A DNA stretch of 63,824 nt, counting the filler, from Chrysochromulina tobinii (Eukaryota), in assembly GCA_001275005.1 (NCBI GenBank). It is 6 parts of 6 records of this genome, joined end to end, with 100 filler letters (N's around TTAATTAATTAA, not from the genome) between each part and the next. Parts side by side here need not be neighbours in the genome. Positions count along the whole stretch, not along the records: positions 25,355 to 35,051 come from JWZX01001172.1; 5 more parts are not named here. One strand, given 5' to 3'. Below the pieces are notes generated by a model, which was not told the origin of the DNA, did not search any database, and saw nothing but the letters and a program-made list of their open reading frames with translations. A program made the translations under genes and the position numbers. Shown piece by piece: positions 32,058 through 55,781 of the stretch; position 1 is the first letter of the stretch; every line of letters starts with the position of its first letter.

Positions 32058-35051
32058 TCATCCGACAAGCTTGTTGACCGCCGCGTCCACATTCCCGTTG
32101 GTCGCATCGAGGGCCCTTTGGCCGGCGGCCGTGTCCGAGAAGCCCATCTTCGCGAGCTCCTCCAGCTCCTTTTGATACTTGTAGGATGGAGGCCTCACCG
32201 GACGACCATTCATCGTCTTGGCCTTACCAGCAGCATTGCTCGTGGGTGACGGCGCGGGCGCGGGCGAGGGCGCGGCGGGCGCCGCCACGGCGCCGCTCTC
32301 GCCGGGCGGAGGGAGGAACTGCAGCGTCAGAGGGCGGCCGCATGCCTTGATCTTGTCGATGCACGCGTCCTTGAGCAGCCCTCTCACGTTCTCAAAATTG
32401 ATGCCCACGAGGATCATGCGCTTCGTCACACCATTCGTGTGCGCCTGGCTTCCTGGGGCTGGGTCGTTTGAGACGACGACGGCGTCCTGGAAATCGGAGA
32501 GTGCCAGACCCAAAGCACCCTCGCCAAACGTGTAGCTGTTCGACTGCTGATGCGGCAGCAGCGGCGGCGCGGGTAGCGTATACGCGCGGTCCCTGCCGCC
32601 CCGCTCCGCCTCGATGGCTGAGAGCGCCTGGACGGCGGTGACCGCACATGTGAGCTGCCCGATCACCTTGCTTCCGTCGAGCACTGACCTAAACTCAATC
32701 GGACCGAGCGCGTGATCGGCGCCCGAGCGCAGCAGCTTGCGCAGCGAGATGGTGCCCACGCCAAAGTCGTCACTCGGTTCGCCGTCGGGGTACGGGCCGT
32801 CGAGCGCAAACGCGACCATCTCTACGTTCGACTCCTTCTCATCCATCTTGAGCACACGAGCGAGCTCCTCGCGCCGCGCTCTGTCGGCGACGCTAAAGGC
32901 GCGCCCAAAGCGGAAACCCGCGCGCCCCGTCTCATCCATGGCAGCTTTGAGTGTCGGCGGAGTCTCCCCAACCATCCCCGGCACGTCGATCATGATCGCC
33001 ACCCCCCTGTGGGATCCGAGCAAGCCGAGCTTCTCCGGCACCAGCTTCAGCTCTGTCACGCCGATCATGATGATGTTGCTCATGTCGGGCGCATCCTGAG
33101 CGGGCGCGGCGGACGGCGGCGGGGCGGACGGCGGCGCGGGCGGCGGCCGGGGTGGTAACGCGGGCGGCGGCTCGTCGAAGCCGCCACCGCCAAAGCCAAA
33201 GCCACTGCTGCCGAAGCCTCCACCGAAGCCGCTGTCGACTCCGCTGAACGACGCCGGCGCATCGCCGAAGCCACTGTCGCCACCGCCGAAGCCGCTGTCG
33301 ACTCCGCTGAACGACGCCGGCGCGTTGCTGAAGCCACCGCTCGGCGCACCGAAGCCGCCGTCTGCGCTGCCAAAGCCGCCGTCGCCACCGCCGAAGCCGC
33401 CATCGCCACCGCCGAAGCCTCCGTCTGCAGCTCCGGCAGCATCGCCAAACGACGCCGGCGCGTCGCTGAAGCCACTGCTTACCGCACCGAAGCCACTGTC
33501 GTCACCGCCGAAGCCGCCATCTGCGCTGCTGAAGCCGCCGCCAGTGCTGCCGAAGCCGCCGTCGCCACCACCGAAGCCGCCATCGCCGCCGCCGAAGCCG
33601 CTATCCCCACCGCCGAAGCCGCCGTCGGTGCTGCCAAAGCCACCGTCGCCATAGCCGTCGCCACCGTCAAAGCCGCCGTCTGCAGCTCCTGCAGCATCAC
33701 CAAACGACGCCGGTGCATCGCCACCGCCGAAGCCGCTATCCTCATCGCCGAAGCCGCCGTCTGCGCTGCCAAAGCCGCCGTCGTCACCGCCGAAGCCGCA
33801 ATCCCCATCGCCAAAGCCGCCGTTGGCACCACCGAAGCCGCTAACTGCGCTGACGAAGCCGCCGTAGGAGAGGCCACTGGCCACTTTGAGTGGGCTGGGC
33901 GTCCTTGATGGCGGGGTTGGCAGTTTGGTGAGCACATCAGCATACGTGGGGCTCCGTCTGCCGGGCGGGGTTGTGGCAACGATCACGGCCGGGCGGGGGA
34001 GTGGGGGAGCGACTAGCGATGGTGTGGCCGGTAGTGGGGCGGGGGCCGACAGAATCGCGTCGACCTCAGCCTCAATCTCGCAGCGACGGTCCAGTGACGG
34101 CACGCCGCCGACCGGGCTGCTGTCGCCTGTGGACGACTGGAAGGCGAGGAAGCCCACCTGTGGGGAGGGAGGGCGCCGTGGTGAGCACTGGCATGCAGGC
34201 TGCTGTCGCCATTGGACGACTGGAAGGCGAGGACACCCACCTGCTTCGGCGCTTTGTCCTGGCGCCGTCGTGTCGGCTTCTCGGGTTTCGAAGAGGGTTC
34301 GGCAGGACGCTCGGCCGGACGCGACAGCTCAACAAGGCCCATATCCGCGCCGCGCCACGCCCTTTTGGGATCCACCGACGGCGAGAACGGAGGGGGACGA
34401 AACGGCTGCGCCTTGAAGGACTGCTCGCGCGTGGGTGGACCAGGCGGCTGAGCCGACCACGCGCTGCTCAAGTGGCTGAGGCCTGTGTCCGGCGAACCGG
34501 CTGCCGACTGGGCCACGGACATCGCTGGGGAGAAGGAGACGGGAGGTTGCCTCGAGAAGGCCGCGCTCGCCGGCGCGGGCGGCGGTGCACGACCGACGAG
34601 CGCTGTGCCGAGCGCGGGCGAGGGCACGAAGTTCGCAGCGTTCACGGGTGGGCCGGCGGCGGTCACGGGCGGCACCATGAGCGAGTCGTCCAAGAGAGAG
34701 AGCTTGGAGGTCGTTGGCGTCGTACGGAGTGCCGTTGCCGCCGTTGCCGCCTGCCGCGCGCGCGCTGACTCCACCTGCAGCGCACCGAGCTCACGCCTCA
34801 TCGCATCCAATCGGGTGGACTCGACCGAAGCTTTCTGCTTGGTACGGCTCGAGCGCGTCTCCGTCAGCTCTTCCTCGAGCAGCTGCCGCTGCCGGCGCGC
34901 CTCACCCACCTGCTGCTGCAACTCCCGGTACTCGACAGTTGGCGCAGGTGGCCGGCCATCCGTGCTGAGGTCGTTCGCGACCGTCGCGTCTATCTGCTGC
35001 TGCAGCACCCCGATCTCGGCCGTGAGCTGCGAGAGCTCCAAGTGCAATGGC
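32058..35051 (-). CDS. Coiled-coil + Gly/Phe-rich repeats + RPGRIP1-type C2 + PDZ-like + UBA protein (5' truncated; intron 34158-34240)
   Basis: KAPKQ|VGFLAF in-frame splice. GGDGGFG repeats. DDFGVGTISLRKLL...IGQLTCAVTAVQAL is RPGRIP1-C C2-like. FGEGALGL...GRPLTLQF is PDZ-like. LAKMGF...ALDATNGNVDAAVNKL is UBA. Confidence 0.75.
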
Positions 35052-38693: not shown

Positions 38694-39442
38694 CTGCGGA
38701 CGAGACGGCGCATGATTTTCGCCGACACAAGAGCGCCACGGAAGAGGCCTTTGCCGAGCTCGTCTGCCCCATCACCTTCTCGCTCCCCGTCGACCCCGTC
38801 ATGGCGGAGGACGGCAAGGTGTACGAGCGCTCGGCCATCGAGGAGTGGCTCAAGCAGCAGCACAAGAGCCCGGTGACGAACTTGGCGATGGGCACGAAGC
38901 TGCTGCCGGCGCTGCAGGTCAAGAACATGATCCGCACGATGGTCGCCTCGGGCGCTCTCACGGGCGACAAGGTGGACGCGTGGAAGCTGAAGCTGGAGGA
39001 GGAGGAGGAGGTGGCGGAGTGGCTGCGTGAGGCCGAGGCTGGTGAGGGCTTCGCGATGTACAACCTGGGAGTTTGTTACGAGCGTGGTCAGAAGGGCCTC
39101 GCCAAGGACTTGGCCAAGGCTTTCGAGTGGTACAAGAAGAGCCACGAGGCTGGGTATGAAACTGGGACTGGCGGCCTTGGCTGGTGCTACTTGCATGGGG
39201 AGGGCGTGCCAAAGTGCCCCATGCTTGGCGCTACGCTGATGAGCGACGCCGCCGCACGCGGCAGCAAAAACGCGTGCATCTATCTGGGATGCGCATACGC
39301 TGGTGGCCTCTGTGGCTTCCCGAAGGACGAGAAGATGGCGCGCCGCTACTACTCGATGATGGCGAGCGCCGCGATCGATGATTGCTCCGACGACGCAAAG
39401 GAGAAAGCAGCCACGTGGCTGCGTGCGCATGCAGCAGCTTGA
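38694..39442 (+). CDS. U-box + SEL1-repeat protein, copy 1 (first few codons lost at the contig start)
   Basis: LVCPITFSLPVDPVMAEDGKVYERSAIEEWL...SPVTN is a U-box. AMYNLGVCYERG..GLAKDLAKAFEWYKKS is SEL1. Confidence 0.9.
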
Positions 39443-39691
39443 CTCGGTGCGTTGGCACGTTTGAGTGCTGCGCTGGGTATGGGGGAGAGGGGTTGTAGTT
39501 TGATTGCAGTGGCTGTGAGCTCATGGCTTGTGAGCTAGCTCATGGCTCGGTGCCCTCTCTGTGTGCATCCTCTCGCTCTGAGTGCGTAGAGTATTGCGGA
39601 GAGGTGTGAGAACGGCACCAGCCACCGAAACAGACCTATCCCTGCCTATCCTGGGGCAACGGGTGTGTGAACGTCTCTCCCTCAACGTTCG

Positions 39692-40468
39692 ATGCCGCCC
39701 AAGCGCGGCCGCCGCGCTGCTGCGGACGAGACGGCGCATGATTTTCGCCGACACAAGAGCGCCACGGAAGAGGCCTTTGCCGAGCTCGTCTGCCCCATCA
39801 CCTTCTCGCTCCCCGTCGACCCCGTCATGGCGGAGGACGGCAAGGTGTACGAGCGCTCGGCCATCGAGGAGTGGCTCAAGCAGCAGCACAAGAGCCCGGT
39901 GACGAACTTGGCGATGGGCACGAAGCTGCTGCCAGCGCTGCGGGTCAAGAACATGATCCGCGCGATGGTCACCTCGGGCACTCTCACGGGTGACAAGGTG
40001 GACGCGTGGAAGCTGAAGCTGGAGGAGGAGGAGAAGGTGGCGGAGACGCTGCGTGAGGCCGAGGCTGGCGATGGCGCGGCGATGTGCGTCCTGGGGAATT
40101 GGTACTGGCGTGGTATGAAAGGCCTCGCGAAGGATTTTGCCAAGGCTTTCGAGTGGCTCAAGAAGAGCCACGAGGCTGGGTTTGCAAGTGGGACTTGCGG
40201 CCTTGGAGCGTGCTACGTGCTGGGTCGTGGCGTGCCAAAGTGCCTTGTGCGTGGTGCTACGCTGCTGATGGACGCCGCCGCACGCGGCAGCAAACGCGCG
40301 TGCTACAACCTGGGAGACGCATACGCTGATGGCATCTGGGGCTTCCCGGAGGACGAGACGATGGCGCGCCGCTACTACTCGATGGTGGCGAGCGCCTCGA
40401 TCGATGATTGCATCGACGCTTACAAAGAGGAAGCAGCCACATGGCTGCGTGAGCATGCAGCAGCTTGA
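39692..40468 (+). CDS. U-box + SEL1-repeat protein, copy 2
   Basis: Tandem paralog 1026 bp downstream with the same U-box and three SEL1-like repeats. Confidence 0.92.
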   Translation: MPPKRGRRAAADETAHDFRRHKSATEEAFAELVCPITFSLPVDPVMAEDGKVYERSAIEEWLKQQHKSPVTNLAMGTKLLPALRVKNMIRAMVTSGTLTGDKVDAWKLKLEEEEKVAETLREAEAGDGAAMCVLGNWYWRGMKGLAKDFAKAFEWLKKSHEAGFASGTCGLGACYVLGRGVPKCLVRGATLLMDAAARGSKRACYNLGDAYADGIWGFPEDETMARRYYSMVASASIDDCIDAYKEEAATWLREHAAA

Positions 40469-40755
40469 CTCGGCTTTGGCGCGTTTGAGTGCTGCGCTGG
40501 ATGCGGCTCAGTGGCAAGCGAGCAAGCAAACTACCATGCCGTGGTGGCTACCGGTGTATTGCCGTGTGTACCATGCGGGGCATGCGTCGATGCGATGGTA
40601 CGCCGGGGTGTGCGGATGTTTCGATTGATTAGCTTGCTAGTTGTGTTCTGAGCTGACCTTTGATCGCGTGTGTTTCATGGACCTCTGAAACGCACTGTGT
40701 GTGGGTGAATTGTGTGTGTGGCCCAATTAACCGCCTTCCCGGCCAACTCCGCGGG

Positions 40756-43700
40756 ATGCCACGCCGCCGTCGGCAGACCACACGGTACCAATATGTGCAG
40801 GACTGCCTGACGCTGGCCCTCAATGAGGCTGTCAGTCGAGAAAACGACTCGACGCGCGACATCTTGACCAGCATGGGCCATCGGCTGATCGCAATGGCAG
40901 CGACGGCACCGAGCGAGGCGGTAGCTTTTCCACCAGCCCATGGAGACGACGAGCCGGTGCTCTTTGAGCGTGCACCCGCGCCTGCGGCTGGCCAACGGCG
41001 GCTCTCGCCACATGCGTCTGCCGAGCCGACCACGGCAGCGCAGTGGCTGGCCGAGCAGAACGTAGCCGATGCCGTGGCCCGATGCATCCTGGACCCGGGC
41101 GCACCGAACGACCTGGCGTCGCTGCGGCAGCTGGCCGGCCGCCCCGAGGTGCGCAGCACGCTTGTCGCGCGCCTGCAGGCGGGCGCGGGCGCATTGGCAG
41201 CAGCTCTGTTGCCCGCCCTCGCTGCGCTCGCTACGGCGGGGGCGGCGGCGCCGTCGGCGGCGGCCTTGGAGCTGCTGAGCTGTGGGGAGTCGGAGCTGCT
41301 GGGCTGTGCGGAGTCGGGCGCAGCCATGGACGCGGCCCGCTTGCACGGCAACACGACGGAGTATCCCATGATTCTCGTCGTGGGCGCCATCAACGTGGAT
41401 GTCACTGCGCATGTACGCTACGAGCGCATCGATTGATTGCCATTGATTGGCACTGATGGCGTCGCTCATCAACGTGGACGTCACTGCACGTTTACGCGGT
41501 ACACTGGACGCTACGAGCGCATCGACTGATTGCCATTGATTGGCACTGATGGCGTGCCTGATGGCCTCGCTCATCAGGTACGCGGTGCACTGGACGCTAC
41601 GAGAGCATCAACGGTCGTCGGTTCGGATGAGCCGCCTTCATTTACGCAGGTGATTGCATGCTGATTGCATACCGATTGCATGCTGATTGCCTCCCTCATC
41701 GACGGTCGTCGGTTCGGATGAGCCGCCTTCTTTTACGCAGGTGATTGCTTGCCCTCTGAGGACCTTTGATGTCCTCTGATGGCCTCTGATGACCTCTGAT
41801 GACCTCTGATGATGACCTCTGATGATGACCTCTGATGACCTCTGATGACCTCTGATGACGCAGGGCGGGCGAGGCTTCAATCAAGCAGTCGCCTGTGCGC
41901 GACTAGGCACGAGGACCCAGCTCGTAGCGCTCATTGGGAACGATGTGCTTGCTAGGCGGGTCATCGAGGATAGGTGAGTGCATGTGATTGCCTGTGCTTG
42001 CTAGGCGGGTCATCGAGGATAGGTGAGTGCATGTGATTGCCTGTGGATTGCATGTGATTGGGAATGATCGCATGCTTTTGCAAGGCGGGTCGTCGAGGAC
42101 AGGTGATGGTCTCTGGTTGTACCTGTCAGTGCCTCTGAGCGCCTCGGAGTGCCTCTAATGGCCTCTAATGGCCTCGGAGTGCCCCGGAATGCCTCTAATG
42201 GCCTCGGAGTGCCTCTAATGGCCTCTATGGCCTTTGAGGGCCTCTATGGCCTTTGAGGGCCTCTAATGGCCTCTAATGGCCTCGGAATGCCTCTAATGGC
42301 CTCTATGGCCTCGGAATGCCTCTAATGGCCTTTGAGTGCCTCGGAGTGCCCTGCTTTCTGCCAACGGCTACTGACCGGTGCTCGCTTTCCCTTGCTCGCT
42401 GAGGATGCAGCCTGAGCGCAGTCGCTCTCTTGATGCCACTCGATGTAACGTCTGTGCTGCGCGCCGAGCAGCCGGAGGCGAAGACGGGCCTCTCTGTCAT
42501 CCTTCGGTGATTGCATCTCTGATGTCCTCCCTGATTGCATCTCTGATCGCATCTCTGATTGCATCTCTGATGGCATCTCTGATTGCATCTCTGCTCGCAT
42601 CTCTGATGGCATCTCTGATGGCCTCTCTGATGGCCTCCCCGGATGCAGGTGCGTCGAAGGTCCTGGCAAAGGGCAGACGCTCTCCGTGCCGTGCCTGGGC
42701 GCGAACATGTTGATGGGCGAGCGGGAGGTGGCGGTTGCATGCAAGCTGATCGATGGGCCGATGGGTGGTGGCATTGCATGCGAGCTTTTGGATGTGAGTC
42801 GTCCAACCGTCGCTCGGCACGGCGCTGTCGCCCGGCACGGCGCTGTTGCATGCGAGCTTTTGGATGTGAGTCGTCCGACCGTTCCGCTCCAACCGTCGCT
42901 CGGCACGGCGCTGTCGCCCGGCACGGCGCTATCGCCCGGCACGGCGCTGTCGCCCCTGACCCTCAGCCAACCCCGCCCTGACCGTTTGGGTCCAGACCAC
43001 CGCGGTCATCAACGGCACTCAGACGCAATCAAGAACACTCAGTGGCCAGCCGAGTGGTCGGAGCGGGGTTTCGTCAAGGGCACTCCGGGCTCGGGGTTCG
43101 TCAAGGGCACTCCGGGCTCGGGTTTCGTCGGGCAGGTGCTGCTGCAGCTCGAGATCCCGATCTCGGTCAACCGTCGCGTCGCCCGGTACGGCGCCGAGCG
43201 CGGCTGCTTCGTGGGCGTGAAGAGCTCGCCGTTGGATGCGGAGGGGGCTGCGGAATTGCGCTCGCTGCTTGCCGATGGGACCGTGCATCTGCTCATGATG
43301 GCGGGCTTTGAAGCACAGGTGCGGGGTGGTTGCGGGCTGATGAACGGATGATTACACGCTGCGATTACCGGCTAATTACCGGTGGTAATTGGCATGAATG
43401 GACCATGATTGCAATCCATGTTATCTGCGCGCCCGCGACGGCGCGACGTCACGCGCTGTTCCGGGCGCTCCGGCTCCCGCGCGAGCGCCCTGCATGCAAG
43501 TGCTTACCACAGCGCCCGCCTCTCCCCACAGGTGCTGCTCCGGCTCGCGCGCGCGCCCGCGGTCGTCGCGGATGCAGATGCGGCGGCCTCGCGCCTCTTT
43601 GACGAATTCCCGTCGCTCTGTGCTGTCGTCATCTCGTTACCGGTACGACCAGGAGCTGATTGCCTCTTGATGACCTCTGATGACACCTAATTGCCTCCCT

Positions 43701-46700
43701 CCTCAGGGCATCGCCGTCGTCGCGCGCTACAGCGCAGACACTCTCTCCACTGCGGTCGCGGAGCAGCACTCGGGGCGCTGTCAGACCAAATTAGGCAGCT
43801 CCGGTGCCGAGTCTACCAAATTAGGCAGCTCCGGTGTCGAGTCTACCAAATTAGGCAGCTCCGGTGCCGAGTCTACCAAATTAGGCAGCTCCGGTGCCGA
43901 GTCTACCAAATTAGGCAGCTCCGGTGCCGAGTCTACCAAATTAGGCAGCTCCGGTGCCGAGTCTGTGGACGCGGCGGCGGCGCTCGCTGTGCCCGCGACG
44001 ACGCGTACCAAAGTGACGAATCTGATCGTACTGCCGGCGCGGAAGCTGCATTACACCAAACTGGACGACCGCGCTTTCCACAGTGAGAGCGCGCGAATGA
44101 CCTCTGAGGACCACCTCGGATACCTCTGATGACCTCTGATGGCCTCGGATGGCCTCGGATGGCCTCGAATATCCTCTGATGACCTCTGATGGCCTCCCTC
44201 ATCAGGTAAGAGTGCCCCCTCAGCGAGCGGAGCGGCCGATGCGTTCTGTGCGGGCTTCATGGCAGCCCTCGGTCGACGGCTGAGTGTTCGTCAGGCGCTG
44301 TTCTGGGCGTACGTTACGGGGCAGCTGAGTGCGCTCCAGCCGTGCACCCAACTCGAGGGCAGCTTGGATGACATTGAAGAATTGGTACGTCTCTGATGGG
44401 CGCTGATGGGCGCGTATGGCCTCTGATGACCTCTGATGGCCTCTGATGGCTTCTGACGGCCTCTGATGGCAACTGATGCCTCTGAGTGCGTCGGCCATCA
44501 GGATGACCTTGAGTAGACATTGAAGAGTTGGTTCGTCTAGAGCTCTGTGACGATTTCGTCCGCCGAGTGCCGCTGTGATCACTGATGACAGGCGATTGCC
44601 CTCCCTCATCAGGCGCGTCTCGAGCTCTGATGACCTCTGATGATCACTAATGACCCATAACTGCCTCCCTCATCAGGCGCGTCTCGAGCTCAGCGCCGAG
44701 ATCGAGGTGGAGGGTCCGCTATTCCGTCCACTGAGCGCCGATGAGGAGTCGCTCCCAGGGCCCTTCCGAGCAACCACGTACTTCGTGCCTCTGATTACGT
44801 CTCGGATTGCGCCTCTGATTACGCCTAGGATCACTTCTGATGAGCGCTGATTGCCCCATTCATCAGGTACTTGCGCCAGACTCCGCTCCACCTCTCGCTG
44901 CTCTCCGCACGTCCCTCGCGCCTCCCAAAGCTCTTTGTGCGTGGGCACTCGTTGGGGCACACGGGGGGCGGCGCGCACCATCTCGGCCATAATCTGAGCC
45001 ACAATCTCGGCCATAATCTCGGCCACTCATCTGCCGACCAGCTGCTGCGCACCATGGCGCCGGAGCAGCTTGCATGCATGGTCAATGTGGAGGACTCGTT
45101 TGGGTTCAATCCGTTACAGCGCGTGCACGACATGCATCAGCACACGCGCAAGGACACTGTAGAGCGCAAGCTCACGCGCCACATGCTTGATTGGTGCGCG
45201 GATGACCTCTGATGACCACATGCTTGATTGGTGTGCTGATGACCTCTAATGACCTCGAATGACCTCGAAGGGCTCACACGATGGACCGCACTGATGATCT
45301 TCCTCATCAGGCTGCTCGCGGCGCATGCATTGCTCGCCGCCACCCAAAACGGGGCTGACGCCAACCGCGGCAACCCGCTTCTGACGCTCTCGCGCCCGGC
45401 CGGGCTGCATCGAGCGCGCTCGCAATCTCGGCTACAATCTCGGTCGATTGCGGCGCGAGAGCCGGCGCGAGGCGCGTGGCAGCAGGTGTGGATCTCGAAC
45501 GATCTCTCACGATCTCGCACGATCTCGCACGATGTCGCATGATGTCGCATGATCTCGCACGATCTCGCACGATCTTTGATGGCCTCTGATGACCTCTGAT
45601 GACCTCTGATGATCCTTGATGACCTCTGTTGACCTCTGATGGCCATCGATGGCCTCGGATTGCCTCGCTCATCAGGTGTGGCTCTCGATCGCTGCCTCCG
45701 CCGTCCCCTCCGAAGATGACCTCTGATTGCATGCTGATTGCCTCCCTCATCAGGTGTGGCTCTCGATCGCTGCCTCCGCCGTCCCCTCCGAAGATGACCT
45801 CTGATTGCATGCTGATGGCCTCCCTCATCAGGTGTGGCTCTCGATCGCTGCCTCCGCCGTCCCCTCCGAAGAGATCTTTCGTCAATCGATGGCGGTCATC
45901 CAACAGGTCGATAGCGGCAAGGAGGTGCGTCTCCTTCTGATGAGCCGCTCGAAGACCTCTGATGACCTCTGAGGGCGTCTGATTGGCTCTCTCATCAGGT
46001 GCCACTCAACGTGGAGGAGGCGACTGCTTCGCTCGCCACCATGGTCGTCGTCTCCATTCTGGACGACGCGAGCCGACGACACCGCGAGCGGCGCGAAAAG
46101 GCGAGCGGCCGAGAGCGCGGCTCGTTCCGCAAGTCGGAGGAGGTGACGAAACTCGAGCTCGAGAGCTCGGCCTCTGATTGCACTCTGATGGCTCTCTGAT
46201 GGCACTCTGATTGCACTCTGATTGTACTCTGATTGCACTCTGATTGCACTCTGATTGCACTCTGATTGTACTCTGATTGCCTCCCGCATCATCTTGCAGG
46301 TGACGAAACTCGAGCTCGAGCTGCTCGAGATGAGCTCCGAGTTCGAGGCGGCCGAGCTCGCGGAGATTAATCTCGTCGAGGCCTTCTGTGCGCCCGTACT
46401 CACCGCGTCCCTCAAGCCTCCTTCGCCGCCGCCAACACCACCGCCGAACGCCTTCGCGTCGACGCCCGCCACGACGCCCGCCACGGCGCCCACGACGGCG
46501 GCGATGTCGACGTTCTGCCGCTGCCTGCTCGAGTGCCGGGACCCGTTCGATGGACGAAACTTGCTCCTGCTTGCATGCGGCGCGGGGTCGTCACTGCTCG
46601 TCGACTTGCTGCTCACGCACGGAGAGCGAAGCCGCGGTGCGTTCAATTGCATGCTGATTGCCTCCCTCTTCAACGCACGGAGAGCGAAGCCGCGGTGCGT

Positions 46701-49700
46701 TCAATTGCATGCTGATTGCCTCCCTCATCAACGCACGGAGAGCGAAGCCGCGGTGCGTTCAATTGCATGCTGATTGCCTCACTCATCAGGTGCTCAGATA
46801 CACCCAGGCTGAGTGCATGCTGATTGCATCCCTCATCAGGTGTGTTCATTGACGTGCATGCTCGGACACACGCGGGGGAGACGGCGCTGCATCTCGCCGC
46901 TGCCTCCGGCCACTTCGATATCTGCAAGATGCTGCTGCAGCGGACGGGGCTGCAACTGAAAGGTCCAGCCGGAATCGATTGCACGCGATGACGCCCCTCC
47001 AATTGGCGCCTCTGATTGCATGCTGATGGCCTCCCTCATCAGGTCCAGCCGCGGAATCGATCCATGCGACGACGCCCCTCCAATTGACGCCTCTGATTGC
47101 ATGCTGATGGCCTCCCTCATCAGGTCCAGCCGCGGAATCGATCCATGCGACGACGCCCCTCCAGTTGGCGGGAACGGCAATGCATTGGCAAGTGGCGCTC
47201 CAGATGAGTGCATTCGTGTGCGGACCGTTCGAAAACCCTCTGGGAGCCCTGATGACGAACGCAATCCAAGAGGGGCTTCAACGGCGGCTCAACATGCCCG
47301 ATGACGAAGCCGGAAGCCGTTGGAAGGTTCGAGGCACCGCTCGCGTCGCGAGTGTCGCTGGGGTGATGGGGCGTGAGTTCCGCGGGCCTTCGTTCACAGG
47401 TGCGCGCAGGGGAGGCGCACGCTGTGATTGCCTCCGATTGCGCTTAGAGTAGGCGCGTGATGACCTGTGATTGCCTCCGATTGCGCGTAGAGGAGGCGCA
47501 TGATGACCTGTGATTGCCTCCGATTGCGCTTAGAGTAGGCGCATGATGACCTGTGATTGCCTCCAATTGCGCGTAGAGGAGGCGCATGATGACCTGTGAT
47601 TGCCTCCGATTGCCATCGATGTTGCCTCGCTGCTGACCTGTGCGGACCTTCGTTCACACGTTGTGCATACGTTGTTCACAGTGATGCCCGAGCAACTCGA
47701 GCGCATCCGCCAGCAAGTGGCCTCTTCGGCGACTCTCCTCGTCCTCTTGAGCAACGCGCTGCTGAGCGAGCCCACAGCGCTGGTGACCGTCTGATTGCGA
47801 CTGATTCGCTATCTGATTGCGACTGATTCGCTATCTGATTGCGACTGATTAGCATCGGATTGCGACTGAGTTTCCTCTGATGAGCACTGATGGCCTCCCT
47901 CATCAGGTGGCCGAGCTCAAGATGACCTCTGATTGCCTCTTGATGGCCTCTGATTATCCTCTGATGAGCACTGATGGCCTCCCTCATCAGGTGGCCCTCG
48001 TGGCGGCGTTTGATCTCTGATTGCCTCTTGATTGCCTCTGATTGCCTCTGATGAGCACTGATGGCCTCCCTCATCAGGTGGCCCTCGTGGCGGCGTATGA
48101 TCTCGGCAAGGCAATCGTCGGGCTGCGCGTGGATGCCGTCGATGGAGTGCCCGCCGAGGCGCTCGCTTATGACGAGGAGGTCGCCACGACGGCGCTCCAT
48201 AACCTGGCAGCGTACCTGACAAGGAAGCACCCCGATGTCCTGGCGGCGATGGAAGCGAGCGGCCTCGATGTCGCCGACATGGGGCGCAAGTGTTTGAACG
48301 TGGCGCGAAACCTCAAGGCGCGAAACATCGTCCATGTGCCCAACGCGACGCTCACGCCAGATGCGAGCTCGAGCGCCGTATCGGGCAGCTCCGCTCCTCG
48401 CGGCCCACGGGTGCTCCTTGAGGTCTCGTCATCAGAGGTTTCGTCATCCGAGGTTTCGTCATCCGAGGCGCTCCGAGGCGCTCCGAGATACTCCGAGGTT
48501 TCGTCATCAGAGGTTTCGTCATCAGAGGTTTCGTCATCCGAGGCACTCCGAGGCGCTCCGAGATACTCCGAGGCACTCCGCACTCGATGGGTGCTTGATG
48601 ACGAAACTCTGCGAGCGATCGAGGGCGGTCTCGAGGACGCCGAGATTTTGGCCGCGATCTCGAACGAAGCTCGCGCTCGCCTCGTGATTCGAAAGCATCT
48701 CGCGCAGCGGATCGCCGCGGGGCGCACCCGGACACGGATGCAGCTCAAGAGCCGCACAGCGCGTCTCCATCGCCTGAAGCGCGTCGCCGATGGGCGCGAT
48801 GCGGAGGTGCCTCAACTGGGCAGGTTGCCTAGCATGGACGATGCGGAGCCGCCCTCGCCCGACGAGATGCGATCTCCGCCCGACGAGATGCGATCTCGCG
48901 CGCTCAGATATCACCTGTGCCTCTCGCACCAGTGGCGGTTCGGGCAGGACGTGGCGCGTGCCATCAAGCTGCGCCTGCCCGACTTCGTGCCAAACATCCA
49001 GATCTGCGTGGAGCTCGATAAGGAGCGATCTGCGGATGCGCTGCGCGACTCGATCGACGTCTCCCTTACGGTCGTCGTGCTGATCTCAGATGGCTACTTT
49101 GCGAGCATCGGGTGAGTGCCTCTGATGGCCTCTGATGGCCTCTGTTCACCTCTGAGTACCTCTGATGAGCATCGGGTGAGTGCCTCTGAATGACCTCTGA
49201 TGAGCATCTGGTGAGTGCCTCTAATGACATCTGATGGTCGCTGATGATGTGTTTTCCTCATCAGTTGCACGCGAGAGCTGCTCCGCGCCTTCTGATGACA
49301 CCTGATGACACCTGATGACACCTGATGACACCTGATGACACCTGATGACCTCTGATGACCTCTGATGACCTCTGATGACCTCTGATTGCCTCCCTCATCA
49401 GGTGCACGCGAGAGCTGCTCCGCGCCATTTGGCTTCGAAAGCCGCTCGTGACGTTGATCGATCCGCAAATCGATCGCGCTGAGCTGAGCGCTGCCCAGAT
49501 TCGTCACCAGATCGAGCTCAATCGAGCTCAATGGGAGCTGTGGGGAATCGCTGACGAGATGCGAGCGTGGGGCATGACCCAACTCCCCACAGCCTCGGAA
49601 GTCTTCGAGGCGCTTTTCCCCACAGATGGATCGCGCCCACCCCTCGAATGGGAACGGCTCACACCGTACCAGGTGACATCTCGCTTGAGTGTCTCTTGAT

Positions 49701-52700
49701 TGCCTCTTGATCGCCTCTTGATTGCCTATCGATTGCCGTTCGAATGGGAACGGTTCACACCTACCAGGTGTGCTCATGGCCTCTGATGACCTCTGATGAT
49801 CCTTGATGATCTCTGATGACCTCTGATGACCTCTGATGACCTCTGATGACCTCTGATGACCTCTGATGATCTCGGATGACCTCTGATGGCCTCTGATGGC
49901 CTCTGACCTCGCGGCTCGCCCCGTTCCTAATTAGGACCACACGCTGCGTCTGCTCGTCGAGTCTGTGCTACCGGTCGACCAGACGCCCACGCGGCTCCAA
50001 AGCGAACTCTCACCCGACGAGCAGGTCACGTTGCCCCTGATGACCTCTGATGACCTCCCTCATTAGGTCGCGTGGCCCGCGCTCCGACGGGGCTTCCTTC
50101 CACAGCCCTGATGACCTCTGATGACCTCCCTCTGATGACCTCCCTCATTAGGTCGCGTGGCCCGCGCTCCGGCGGGGCTTCTTCCACGTCTACGCAAGCC
50201 GCCACTGCCCGGGCTCGTTCGATCTCATGATCGAGCTCGCGCGAGCTCATCAGAGATCTCGGATCGCCTCGGCAGTCAGTGATGGCAATGCCGCGGTCCT
50301 CTCCTCCTCTGCACTTGATGATGGGATTGCGGTCATTAGAGGTCATCAGAGGTCATCAGAGGATGGGATTGCGGGCGGCGTCGAGGGTCACCTCTTTGTG
50401 GCAGGCGAGATGCGATCCCTGCAGACCGCGCAGCCCATGCTGACGCCCATGCTGACGCCCGGGACGGCGCCCGGGACGGCGCCCGGCACGGCGCCGCACC
50501 GTCCCTCGGAGATGCTCCACGTGACGAGTGACGAAACCCTCTTACCAAAGTGCTCGCATATGCTCGTGTACGTGCTTGCATGCTTGCCGCTGGATTGCTC
50601 TTGTTGATTGCTCCTGGATTGCTCCTGGATTGCTCCTGGATTGCTCCTGGATTGCTTTTTTATACCTCTGAGGAACTCCAATTGGCTCCTTCATTACCTC
50701 TGAGGAGCTCCAATTGGCTCCCTCATTACCTCTGAGGAACTCCAATTGGCTCCCTCATCAGGTACCTGACCGCCGAGACGTGGACACACGACACCGCCGC
50801 CTTCCTAATCGAGCTCACCCGAGCTCGGCAGCTGGGATTGCATCTGCTGCTTGTGCACGAGGTGCCACGTGTCTCTGATTGCATCTGCTGCTTGTGCACG
50901 AGGTGCCACGTGTCTCTGATTGCATCTCTGATGTCCTCCCTGATGACATGCTGATTGCCTCCCTCATCAGGTGCCCCGCGTCGAGCTGCCCGGCCCGCCC
51001 GACGAGCGCGCGCCCGCGGCGGCGCCTTACCTGATGGCATGCTGATTGCCTCCCTCATCAGGTGCCCCGCGTCGAGCTGCCCGGCCCGCCCGACGAGCGC
51101 GCGCCCGCGGCGGCGCCTTTTGAGGCGATCGTGGCCGCGGCGCCTAGCGAGGCCGTGCACGCGGGGTGGCTCTCCTCAATTACGGTGCCACTCAAGCCGG
51201 CGCCGTACCGGTACTCGAGCATGCTTCTCCTTACGCAGGTGGGTTGCATGCTGATTGCATGATGATTGCCTCCCTCATGGACAGTCGGCGCCGTACCGGT
51301 ACTCGAGCATGCTTCTCCTTACGCAGGTGGGTTGCATGCTGATTGCGTGATGATTGTATTCCTCATGGACGGTCGGCGCCGTACCGGTACTCGTGCATGC
51401 TTCTCCTTACGCAGGTGGGTTGCCAAATATGGCAGCACTCACGTCTGATGACCTCGGATGACCTCCGATGACCTCCGATGACCTCTGATGACCTCTGATG
51501 ACCTCTGATGACCTCTGGTGACCTCTGATGACCTCTGGTGACCTCTGATGACCTCTGATGATCGCCGATTGCCTGAGTAGGCTATCATCGACTATGCCCT
51601 CCCAGTGCGCCTACGCCCTGTCGAGTTGGCCAACGTCGTCGCGGCCGCGACGGGCATCGGGGAAGCGGCGCGTCTGCCCTCGAGCCAGCGCCAAAGTCCA
51701 TCGGCCCCTGGCACACCTAATTTGGGTCCATCGGCCCCTGGCACACCTAATTTGGGTCCATCGGCCCCTGGCACACCTAATTTGGGTCCGGACCAGTTGC
51801 GGTCAGAGGCACTCACACACGAAATGGCCTCGGACACTGGCTCGCCTGGCGGCAAGGGGATCGAGGAGGGAGATTCCGAGGGCGCGCTCTCAATCTCCGA
51901 GCGCGCAGATGCAATCTCCGAGGGCGCACTCTCAATCTCCGAGCGCGCAGATGCAATCTCCGAGGGCGCGCTCTCAATCTCCGAGCGCGCAGATGCGCGC
52001 GAGCTGCTGCTCGCGCCTTCGACCACGCACGAGGAAGGCGAGGCATCCATATTAGGCAATACCACGCACGAGGAAGGCGAGGCATCCAAATTAGGTAACC
52101 GCTCGTCCGTGCGCGCGCGACAGTGCAGTGAGGAGACTATCCTTTCGAGCGAGCAGCCGGGAAATCTTTTCCCACAGCCATCGTTTGCGTCGGAGACGAG
52201 TGACTACAGCCATCAAGTGCCCGACGAGCGTGCCTCCACAACGGCGCCCGGTGAGCGGGTGCCTCTATGGATGCTCTCAGCCTCGCACAAGTCCATGCAG
52301 GTGCGAGATGTCGATCTGAGATGTCGATCTGAGATGACGACCTGATATGACGATCTGAGATGACGATCTGAGGGCCTTGGATCGCTAGAGTTTCGTCGAT
52401 CTGGGATGTCGATCTGAGGGTTATGGATCGCCCGAGTTTCCCTTGAGGCATCATGATGCGACACCGAGATTGACACCGAGATTGACACCGAGATTGACAC
52501 CGAGATTGACACCGAGATTGACACTGAGATTGACACCGAGATTGACACCGAGGACTGACACCGAGATTGCCATCATCGGAGGCACCATGATGCCACACCT
52601 TGATCGCCTCTGATGGCCTGTGATTGCCATTGAGGCCCCTTGATTGCCACGGATGGACATGAGACGTAACGACTTTCCTCATGATTGCCACTGATTGATG

Positions 52701-53201
52701 TGAGACGTCACGACTCTCCTCATGATTGCCACGGATGGACATGAGACGTAACGACTCTCCTCATGATTGCCACTGATTGATGTGAGACGTAACGACTCTC
52801 CTCATGATTGCGACTGATGGACATGAGGCGTAACGACTCGCTCCTCATTGTCCCTCGCGCCCGGCACAGCGCGTGATGGTGGCTGTGGCCGACTACCGAG
52901 CGCAGGCGAAGGCAGCGCGAGAGTTCTACCGAAGTGCGAGCCATACGGAGCAACCCTCAGTGCCGTTGTCCCCGGGTGGCTCTGCATGCAAGTGCTCACC
53001 ACGGCGCCACCCCTCCCCACAGGTGCGAGCCACGAGGAGCAACCCTCAGTGCCGTTGTCCCCTAGTGGCTTCGTGGCGCCGCCCCCACTCCTATCCTTAA
53101 CCGACCGCTCGAGGGGCTCGTCGTCCTCCCGCTCGTGCCGGCTTGGCGAACGTCAAGACTCGCGCGAGTCCTCTGACCCGTCGGAGCCCACGTCGTTTTG
53201 A
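40756..53201 (+). CDS. Large multi-exon (over 20 introns) PfkB/ribokinase-like + ankyrin + multiple TIR-like domain protein
   Basis: PfkB motifs ILVVGAINVD, GGRGFNQAVACARLG, GAN, VLLQLEIP, SGAADAFCAGF. Ankyrins QTPLHL, GETALHLAAASGHFDICKMLL, TTPLQLA. TIR YHLCLSHQW...DGYFASIG|CTRELLRA. Second TIR-like HMLV|YLTAETW...IELTRA...LLLVHE. In-frame GT-AG joins traced for the junctions from 44206 to the stop; some earlier junctions are less certain. Confidence 0.7.
41414..53022 (+). mobile_element. Cluster of introner-like introns: duplicated exon start + decamer repeats (GATGACCTCT-type) + conserved acceptor tail
   Basis: Over 20 occurrences of CC(C/T)TCAT(C/T)AG-type acceptors preceded by CTGATTGC or CTGATGAC repeats, often with a copy of the following exon at the intron 5' end. 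Confidence 0.7.
43787..43964 (+). repeat. Exonic 30-bp minisatellite (TKLGSSGAES x6)
   Basis: ACCAAATTAGGCAGCTCCGGTGCCGAGTCT tandem, in frame. Confidence 0.9.
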
Positions 53202-54103: not shown

Positions 54104-55781
54104 CTATGCGCGGGTGACTTGAGTGTGCGCGCTGAAGGTTGATGGGTGGACGACGGTGGATGATGGGATCGTGATCGACGCGAGCGATTTGCAGCGCACA
54201 AAGGCACCGTCACCAATCTGCGTCACCGACGCGGGGAGCGTGATCGACGCGAGCGAGGTGCAGTTACGAAAGGTGTCCTCACCAATCTGCGTCACCGACG
54301 CGGGGAGCGCGATCGACGCGAGCGAGGTGCAGTCACGAAAGGCGCGCTCACCAATCTGCGTCACCGACGCGGGGAGCGTGATCGACGCGAGCGAGGTGCA
54401 TTCTTCAAAGGCGCTCCCACCAATCTGCGTCACCGACGCGGGGAGCGTGATCGACGCGAGCGAGGTGCAGCCCTTAAAGGCGCGCCCACCAATCTGCGTC
54501 ACCGACGCGGGGAGCGTGATCGACGCGAGCGAGGTGCAGTCCCAAAAGGCGCCCTCACCAATCTGCGTCACCGACGCGGGGAGCGTGATCGACGCGAGCG
54601 AGATGCAGCCGAAAAAGGCGCGCTCACCAATCTGCGTCATCGACGCGGGGAGGTCCGCGACCGACTTGAGCAACTTGCACTCTCGCATCGTGAGCTTTCG
54701 CAGCGCCATCAGCCTCGCCACAGACGCCGGCAGCGCCTCCCCCTTCCACTTCCCGCGCAGATTCAGCCCGCACACGCGCCCCTCCTTGTCCGCCGAGAAC
54801 GCCCTGCCGAGCCCGTCCCGGCCGCCCACCACCCCCGCCAGCCACTCGGGATCCTCCAGGATCCACGCGTCCTCAGACGCCCCGATGAGCTCCAGAGCCA
54901 TAAAGGTGACTTGAGTGTGCTCGTCGAAGGCCAATGGGTCGACGAGGGTCGCCGATGGGATCGTGATCGACGAAAGCGAGGTGCAGCTGCAAAAGGCGCG
55001 CTCACCAATCTGCGTTACCGACTCGGGGATCGTGATCGACGCGAGCGAAGTGCAGGCGAGAAAGGCCTCCTTACCAATCTGCGTCACCGACTCGGGGAGC
55101 GTGATCGACGCGAGCGATTTGCACTTGTAAAAGGTGAACGCACCAATCTGCGTCACCGACTCGGGGAGCGTGATCGACGCGAGCGAGGCGCAGCCCTGAA
55201 AGGCGCGCTCACCTATCTGCTTCACTGACGCGGGGAGCGTGATCGACGCGAGCGAGGCGCAGCCCTGAAAGGCGTACCCACCAATCTGCGTCACCGACGC
55301 GGGGAGCGTGATCGACGCGAGCGAGGTGCAGCCCCGAAAGGTGTGCTCACCAATCTGCGTCACCGACGCGGGGAGCGTGATCGACGCGAGCGAGATGCAT
55401 TCGCAAAAGGCGCTCCCACCAATCTGCGTCACCGACGCGGGGAGCGTGATCGACGCGAGCGAGGTGCAGCCCCGAAAGGCGTGCTCACCAATCTGCGTCA
55501 CCGACGCGGGGATCGTGATCGACGCGAGCGAGATGCAGTTGTAAAAGGCGCTCTCACCAATCTGCGTCACCGACGCGGGGATCGTGATCGTCGCGAGCAA
55601 GGTGCAGTCGCGAAAGGCTTGATTATCAATCTGCGTCACCGACGTGGGGAGCGTGATCGACACGAGCGACGTGCAGTTTTGCATCTTGAGCTTTCGCAGC
55701 GCCGTCAGCCTCGCCACAGACGCCGGCAGCGCCTCCCCCTTCCACTTCCCGCGCAGCTCCAGCCCGACCACGCGCCCCTCC
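54104..55781 (-). CDS. BspA/TpLRR (LRR_5) protein with two duplicated modules, 5' truncated
   Basis: 23-aa repeats C.SLASITLPASVTQIG..AF.. (69-bp DNA units). Cap GL.LRGKWKGEALPASVARL.ALRKL occurs twice. Confidence 0.92.

What the first reader, a model, noticed from the sequence alone, without database searches (positions are those of the whole stretch)
34115..34240. Introns built as a copy of the next exon start plus a fixed 40-nt acceptor tail: candidate undescribed intron-generating mechanism (tail family 1)
Seen: minus-strand intron 34158-34240 (83 nt) is 43 nt copying the downstream exon start (39/43 identical) plus the tail TGCATGCCAGTGCTCACCACGGCGCCCTCCCTCCCCACAG. On a different contig, intron 52934-53022 is a 49-nt exon copy plus TGCATGCAAGTGCTCACCACGGCGCCACCCCTCCCCACAG, and the same tail lies at 43491-43531. 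In the two complete cases, splicing restores the reading frame, using an exonic GT as donor and the tail's CAG as acceptor. Established: known introners (Micromonas, Aureococcus) are DNA-transposon-like with short fixed target duplications and terminal inverted repeats. Inference: these have long, variable duplications and no TIRs, which suggests templated tail addition at a nick followed by re-priming upstream.
Basis: partly seen in the sequence, partly recalled or inferred. Interest (0 to 1): 0.9.

Follow-up and report, generated by a model that had tools for sequence, protein, structure and literature searches.

The report
Self-copying intron ends in an alga
In a freshwater alga, one short piece of intron end sits at over a hundred places in genes, usually next to a 10-48-base duplicate of the gene's own sequence that likely supplies the missing splice signal, so new introns likely arise here by a copying route that known intron-making elements do not show.

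Summary
The tail occurs three times in the window and at about 150 sites in 125 metagenome loci of a Chrysochromulina tobinii/parva-type haptophyte. Only a 24-26 nt core is fixed; the pyrimidine tract varies (12-37 nt). In 59 of 83 acceptor-bearing sites the intron begins with a copy of the next exon's start (10-48 nt, median 27; control 0.08%). For 34158-34240, eight sister-lineage orthologs carry the segment once and no intron (empty site), 30 records carry it filled, and one protein matches the predicted spliced junction. Copies without an acceptor, some antisense, mostly keep the frame in intron-free regions, so the core moves whether or not it is spliced. Some daughters carry their parent's flank, with short junction homology. 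The host's ordinary introns show the same footprint (9 of 32). No inverted repeats, fixed duplication or poly(A). Best reading: homology-primed copying of an existing intron end into a staggered break; enzyme and template (DNA or RNA) are unknown. RNA reads did not settle splicing. Not found in the papers searched; a published screen scored C. tobinii as having no introners.

The parts
34158..34240 (-). new intron, 83 nt, GT..AG
   Evidence: empty and spliced forms
34198..34240 (-). upstream copy of the duplicated target (43 nt), supplies the donor GT
   Evidence: 39/43 identical to 34115-34157
34172..34197 (-). 26-nt family core, with a branch-point-like CTCAC (label from general knowledge)
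   Evidence: position 16 lies 22-47 nt, median 27, before the AG end
34158..34171 (-). pyrimidine tract and CAG acceptor
   Evidence: 65 of 83 acceptors end in the same 7 letters
34115..34157 (-). downstream, exonic copy of the duplicated target
   Evidence: present once in the empty-site orthologs
34241..35051 (-). upstream exon (cut by the contig end) of an EH-domain / coiled-coil / UBA protein gene
32058..34157 (-). downstream exon of the same gene
52934..53022 (+). second family intron, 89 nt: copy 52934-52981, core 52983-53008, tract to 53022
53023..53070 (+). exon start duplicated at 52934
   Evidence: 43/48
43319..43531 (+). third family intron, 213 nt: core 43491-43516, decayed exon copy about 43467-43490, donor further upstream
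   Evidence: the same site in L057
44531..44676 (+). two ordinary decamer-type introns that also begin with a copy of the following sequence
45486..45675 (+). ordinary decamer-type intron with a decayed exon-start copy
46963..47042 (+). ordinary decamer-type intron with a 9-nt exon-start copy

Best explanation
These are recently gained introns of one family, each holding the same 24-26 nt core and most flanked by a 10-48 nt duplication of the target, and they likely arise when a broken DNA end copies the 3' end of an existing family intron and then rejoins upstream. Inferred steps: (1) two offset nicks, one at each end of the later duplication, leave 3' overhangs; (2) one end anneals by a few bases to an existing copy, often at its AG|GT junction, and is extended through tract and core and 0-34 nt into the parent's flank; (3) it rejoins its own locus by short homology, and fill-in doubles the overhang. 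Selection then keeps products that are spliced out (GT in the duplicate, total 57-123 nt) or that keep the frame. Each survivor is a new template, so the family amplifies itself. I take host break repair on a DNA template (polymerase theta or strand-invasion type) as the most likely engine. Shown: family, duplication, empty site, parent-derived ends, both orientations. Not shown: nicks, enzyme, template type, splicing in reads.
For: Duplication in 81 of 104 usable sites (control 1.6%) and anchored at the acceptor in 59 of 83 (control 0.08%). Empty site in 8 orthologs, filled in 30, spliced-type junction in 1, of 40 rows among 217 proteins. Left flanks shared between sites in 58 of 5151 pairs against 0.3 in shifted controls; apart from the decamer subfamily, such pairs have more alike tracts (0.72 vs 0.47, 8 pairs, p 0.001), and in four pairs the shared letters belong to one partner's own duplication. 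Homology around the AG|G junction of 8, 5 and 8 nt in three of those pairs (null mean 4.0; 8 or more in 1.5%); the fourth could not be scored. Partial cores inserted at short homologies and head-to-tail arrays (38 of 150 sites) suggest repeated switching. Duplication length is alike with and without an acceptor (27 vs 23 nt, p 0.17). Antisense copies with flanking repeats. The same footprint in 9 of 32 ordinary introns (control 1.6%) points to a host-wide process. Breaks with 3' overhangs give small tandem duplications in mammalian cells (PMC8355091, abstract).
Against: Generic repair should not favour one 26-mer, yet the core is nearly always whole (27 of 36 bystanders found by the right half match 11 or more of 13 on the left) and in locus flanks core-filled duplications (11) are as common as all unclassified ones (12, biased flanks, and its filter missed the window's own sites). 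Neighbouring copies do not have more alike tracts than unlinked ones (0.50 vs 0.48, p 0.36), and across all pairs tract likeness and exon-start likeness are not linked (p 0.25, 0.31), so local templating and junction homology are not general. Most long fillers had no source among the loci held. Homology into the core start is weak (1.5 vs 1.0 of 4). 24 of 83 acceptor sites lack a clear anchored copy. No whole genome was available to look for an autonomous partner.
Confidence: 0.45

Rival explanations
1. Target-primed reverse transcription: a LINE or Penelope-like enzyme nicks DNA, primes on unspliced RNA near the 3' splice site and copies a very short, 5'-truncated stretch, so the core acts as a minimal SINE-like passenger.
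For: Variable duplications, one end that usually falls at AG|G and a ragged other end; both orientations. Non-LTR elements make variable duplications, up to 126 bp for R9, and Penelope-like elements make very short truncated inserts in Chlamydomonas (PMC9977147, passages). Enzyme preference for an RNA motif would explain why the core is kept whole.
Against: No A-run after the core in 102 sites; the longest left flank shared by an unrelated pair listed is 29 nt, so no longer parent was seen; no fold above shuffles (z -1.2 to 0.9); no Rfam match near a gathering score. Some sites carry extra letters after AG, so an excised intron is an unlikely template.
Confidence: 0.28
2. A tiny non-autonomous partner of an HUH-type element (Replitron or Helitron) that copies the core with a fuzzy end and a variable duplication.
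For: Replitron-1 inserts carry a variable stretch from the parent's flank and variable duplications, and one Replitron locus was recovered in C. tobinii (PMC10288648, passages and section 9). Core boundaries are sharp.
Against: Replitron ends need about 53 alignable bases, direct terminal repeats and one precise end 3' of RG; here the whole unit is 24-26 nt, no terminal direct repeat is seen and both ends are fuzzy. The ordinary introns show the footprint without the core.
Confidence: 0.15
3. A classical TIR (MITE-like) introner, or ancient introns whose tails were homogenised, with the exon copies arising later as local duplications.
For: Introners are common in marine Chrysochromulina genomes. 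Local duplications across acceptors do occur in this genome.
Against: No inverted run longer than 3 nt in 59 inserts and no fixed duplication length. The sister lineage lacks both copy and tail at 34158. The upstream copy usually follows exon sequence, not an older acceptor.
Confidence: 0.07
4. Assembly artefact or unspliced coding insertions.
For: No RNA joint across 34158-34240 was among those shown (46 joints not shown).
Against: 30 filled protein records in other assemblies with allelic differences; the two copies differ at 4 of 43 sites; 41 of 59 lengths are not multiples of three; all 61 callable acceptor copies are sense; P0217 matches the predicted junction 23/24 and 60/60.
Confidence: 0.03

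Closest known systems
Introners that carry the acceptor and take the donor from the target duplication (Symbiodinium; Polarella glacialis classes 4/5 and 6/8/10; bioRxiv 10.1101/2020.10.14.339549 and 10.1101/2022.06.06.494994)
   Same: Repeated family makes new introns; donor co-opted from the duplication; splicing restores the mRNA.
   Different: Their duplications are fixed at 4 or 8 nt, the Symbiodinium ones with inverted repeats; here 10-48 nt, a third of the intron on average, no inverted repeats, and only 24-26 nt shared.
Marine Chrysochromulina sp. introner family 5 (Gozashti 2022, Fig. 2C legend)
   Same: Same genus name, no TIRs; resembles the mirror form here that carries its donor and co-opts the acceptor.
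   Different: 4-bp duplication there; 12-20 nt in the mirror form here.
Replitron-1 / Replitron-N1 of Chlamydomonas reinhardtii (PMC10288648)
   Same: Copy-and-paste, fuzzy end taken from the parent's flank, variable duplication.
   Different: 0.9-3.6 kb elements with direct terminal repeats, one precise end and an RG target; not reported there as making introns.
Intron gain at staggered double-strand breaks, Daphnia pulex (PMC4202315)
   Same: New intron flanked by a repeat of the adjacent exon end; repair origin proposed.
   Different: Repeats of 4-12 bp, source of most inserts unknown; here repeats are longer and the insert is a recurring intron end with traceable parents.
Intron gain by tandem genomic duplication (PMC4974935, search listing only; model recalled)
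   Same: Duplicated exon sequence forms part of the intron and gives the donor.
   Different: There both splice sites come from the duplicated segment, as single cases; here branch site and acceptor are imported.
Non-LTR (LINE / Penelope-like) insertion by target-primed reverse transcription
   Same: Variable duplications, ragged end, short inserts.
   Different: No poly(A), no longer parent, no enzyme gene seen.

Membership tests
Introner (functional definition) | similar introns at unrelated gene positions | tested here: met
   about 150 sites in unrelated genes
Introner (functional definition) | recent gain shown by an empty site | tested here: met
   one site tested: 8 uninterrupted orthologs
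Introner (functional definition) | removed by splicing | tested here: inconclusive
   P0217 has the predicted junction but its source type is unknown; RNA contigs gave only hints; frame, strand and domain evidence agree
Introner as defined by the Gozashti screen | similarity reaching both intron boundaries | tested here: not met
   5' part is site-specific; criterion read
TIR / MITE-like introner | terminal inverted repeats | tested here: not met
   longest run 3 nt in 59 inserts
TIR / MITE-like introner | short fixed target duplication | tested here: not met
   10-48 nt
Replitron non-autonomous element | fuzzy parent-derived end and variable duplication | tested here: met
Replitron non-autonomous element | direct terminal repeats, one precise end 3' of RG | tested here: not met
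   both ends vary and no terminal repeat is seen
Replitron non-autonomous element | ends shared with an HUH-coding element | not testable with these tools
   no whole genome held
SINE-like TPRT passenger | variable duplication with one truncated end | tested here: met
SINE-like TPRT passenger | poly(A) or LINE-shared 3' end, RNA-derived head | tested here: inconclusive
   no A-run, no Rfam match; host LINE ends could not be compared
Break-repair templated insertion | short homology at junctions with a traceable template | tested here: inconclusive
   8, 5, 8 nt in three pairs; not general across pairs
Break-repair templated insertion | dependence on a repair enzyme | not testable with these tools
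   needs experiment
Tandem-duplication intron gain | both splice sites come from the duplicated exon segment | tested here: not met
   acceptor and core are absent from the empty site

The most novel reading that the evidence does not exclude
Introns beget introns with no transposon at all: in this alga the 3' end of any existing intron serves as a template for break repair, the duplicated target supplies the other splice site, and this one process built both the core family and much of the host's ordinary intron stock, leaving readable parent-daughter chains.
Probability: 0.35. Interest if true: 0.92.

Novelty: new variant of a known kind. Interest (0 to 1): 0.78.

Why it matters
Where new spliceosomal introns come from is a long-open question, and bulk gain is now credited mostly to transposons. 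This family makes introns in bulk with a footprint (long variable duplication, a core of about 25 nt, ends inherited from the parent) that the standard screen is built to reject, because it asks for similarity at both intron ends; that screen lists C. tobinii with no introner families. If the engine is host repair, it joins the break-repair and introner models. Either way there are many sites, traceable parents, an empty-site sister lineage and a cultured alga, so the mechanism can be tested directly, and other genomes can be rescreened for the same footprint.

Tried and rejected
No whole genome was held, so no genome-wide count and no search for an autonomous element. RNA contigs laid on 25355-35051 showed no joint at the intron among those listed; two X15 pieces (33926-34141 with 30 unlaid letters; 34215-34397 with 2 other letters) would fit a spliced form but prove nothing. 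The DNA run's very high depth over the tail bin (12,542 against about 120-460 in most bins) fits many copies but is not a copy number. No match in viral contigs. No stable fold, no Rfam family. All-against-all comparison of loci gave no DNA-level empty site. A PDB search for the L027 upstream exon was swamped by glycine linkers. Pfam on both sides of the junction: 44 of 46 prepared sites were submitted; 3 of 44 hit the same family on both sides at E 0.01 (L016, L120, L012) and two more weakly (L086, L006); in L016 and L120 the upstream match stops 9 residues short of the junction. A coding-strand model for unspliced copies was too weak (30 of 38 controls right). Local hopping not supported. 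Duplication identity does not track core decay (rho 0.03). The search of 50% representatives was still queued when I stopped. No homolog test was run for the 52934 and 43319 sites. A likeness of the core to snRNA was considered from memory and dropped.

Full report
Observation. The minus strand at 34158-34240 is a 43-nt copy of the next exon's first bases (39/43), then a 26-nt core, a 14-nt pyrimidine tract and CAG. 52934-53022 has a 48-nt copy (43/48), and a third core lies at 43491-43516; shuffles give none. The third ends a 213-nt intron and has a decayed copy. Removing 34158-34240 joins two long frames into one EH / coiled-coil / UBA protein.

Host. Window proteins cluster at 90% or more with proteins named Chrysochromulina tobinii and C. 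parva. The stretch is held by 13 DNA and 6 RNA runs of mixed cultures and fresh water. No whole genome was held.

Family. Core matches collapse to 150 sites. I dropped 38 in arrays and 8 with short flanks, leaving 104; a few same-site alleles from different strains remain, so counts are slightly high. 81 of 104 have a repeat across the core (control 1.6%). 83 have an acceptor within 40 nt, and in 59 of these the bases after AG are copied upstream (control 0.08%). The copy is 10-48 nt (median 27, median identity 95%, 21 perfect), filler before the core 0-34 nt, tract 12-37 nt, intron 57-123 nt (median 79). Copy and filler lengths trade off (rho -0.52), as expected if total length is selected. 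41 of 59 lengths are not multiples of three. The upstream copy starts GT in 45 and GC in 8. There are no inverted repeats and no A-tail, no stable fold and no Rfam family.

Gain and splicing. Among 217 stored proteins, 40 cover the 34158 junction. Eight long orthologs from a sister lineage run through it as one frame with the segment once and no core; 30 carry the filled allele with small differences; one starts at the junction; one, P0217, reads exactly as the spliced filled allele, 23/24 residues before and 60/60 after. Each of the two window copies keeps one ancestral residue that the other has lost, as a duplication predicts. Whether P0217 comes from RNA or from a DNA allele that lost the intron is not known. 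RNA contigs gave only hints. All 61 callable acceptor copies lie on the sense strand by host-intron markers, 43 could not be called. Pfam matched both sides in the spliced frame at 3 of 44 sites, weakly at two more, with 9 unmatched residues at two. Splicing is therefore well supported but not shown in reads, and the empty site was tested at one position only.

The core moves regardless of splicing. Of 50 copies without an acceptor, 24 are sense, 4 antisense and 22 uncalled. Repeat periods are multiples of three in 19 of 36 (p 0.012, arrays counted more than once), and in 12 of 12 rows from the 8 loci with no intron markers, a subset chosen after seeing the data. Three antisense copies read by hand have flanking repeats; one is read through in frame. 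Their duplications are as long as those of spliced copies. This argues against reverse splicing and against a process tied to the target's own transcript.

Parents and daughters. 58 of 5151 site pairs share the flank left of the core (0.3 expected); most belong to a subfamily with a decamer flank. Among the rest, four pairs show a daughter carrying part of the parent's own duplication with a near-identical tract: L020 to L097, L016 to L112, L010 to L041, L028 to L038. Homology around AG|G is 8, 5 and 8 nt in the three that could be scored (null mean 4.0). Against generality: neighbours are no more alike than unlinked copies, exon starts and tracts are not linked across all pairs, and most long fillers have no source in the loci held. 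Bystander cores are mostly whole (27 of 36), and the partial ones sit at short homologies inside a duplication. A mirror form carries its own donor and takes CAG from a duplicated upstream exon end. Nine of 32 ordinary decamer-type introns also start with a copy of the next exon (control 1.6%), seven of them directly after exon sequence.

Mechanism. The product U-X-insert-X-D follows from two offset nicks with 3' overhangs, priming on an existing intron end by short homology, copying 38-97 nt (median 49), and rejoining with fill-in. That geometry is shared by repair on a DNA template and by target-primed reverse transcription. I favour repair (0.45) because both ends are ragged, switching is repeated, and the ordinary introns show it too. 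The strong preference for a whole core speaks for an element-specific enzyme: reverse transcription 0.28, HUH-type 0.15. All enzymatic steps are inferred. The branch-point label for the core's CTCAC is from general knowledge.

Comparison with print. Known introners take a splice site from 4- or 8-nt duplications (bioRxiv 10.1101/2020.10.14.339549, first of four parts; bioRxiv 10.1101/2022.06.06.494994, passages; review PMC11282704, passages). The 2025 screen requires similarity at both intron ends (PMC12130899, passages and sections 6 and 12) and lists C. tobinii with 0 families; 12 of its 14 supplements were searched and none held the core strings. The 2022 supplement, cut when stored, lacked them too but lists introners in marine Chrysochromulina genomes (PMC9860276); their consensus sequences are kept elsewhere and could hold a relative, and bioRxiv supplements were not open. 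Replitron-1 has parent-derived fuzzy ends and variable duplications (PMC10288648, passages and section 9). Daphnia introns have 4-12 bp repeats (PMC4202315, passages). Non-LTR elements give long duplications and short inserts (PMC9977147, passages). Breaks with 3' overhangs give tandem duplications (PMC8355091, abstract). Fungal stwintrons show no duplication (PMC12403724, passages). The C. tobin genome paper mentions introns once (PMC4580454, passages). Ten searches listed no paper whose title or abstract start describes this footprint; the library lacks most subscription papers. An earlier unchecked note from this scan, e1-2577349, reports a like footprint elsewhere in this genome; it agrees but is not independent support, and I did not test whether it is the same family.

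Verdict. A real, recently active intron-making family with an undescribed footprint; an introner by function, failing the tests for TIR introners, for the published screen and for Replitrons. New variant of a known kind, interest 0.78; if the engine proves to be transposon-free repair, 0.92.

Noticed in passing
window 46143-46299 (+): Ordinary intron that starts with a copy of about 21 nt of the next exon and is lengthened by 11-nt repeats; same footprint, read by eye.
   Followed up: no
window 41388-51420 (+): Many 60-90 nt tandem duplications that span an acceptor and stack several exon starts inside one intron.
   Followed up: partly
L004, L006, L048, L053: Four sites join the family core to a tract like the host's ordinary acceptor, a chimeric subfamily.
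   Followed up: partly
L023, L047, L063, L076, L106: Mirror form: a longer element with its own donor; the duplicated upstream exon end gives the acceptor. The decamer flank is linked to one core variant (6 of 12 vs 9 of 90, p 0.002).
   Followed up: partly
L019 and L020 (one contig): The host gene looks like a family A DNA polymerase (motif recalled, not tested); an antisense core at L019 appears to supply a stop at its end.
   Followed up: no
P0007, P0013: The coiled-coil part of the EH/UBA gene, with its intron, is joined to unrelated N-termini in some records, P0013 with PF00644 and PF02338: possible gene chimeras.
   Followed up: no
window 38706-40469 (+): Two tandem intronless paralogs that read like U-box plus Sel1-repeat proteins (recalled, not tested).
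   Followed up: no
window 54165-55610 and 56341-57725: Arrays of 69-nt and 194-nt units; the first looks like a leucine-rich-repeat gene on the minus strand (label recalled).
   Followed up: no
window 25255-25354 and four like places: N runs with a 12-nt spacer join separate contigs.
   Followed up: yes
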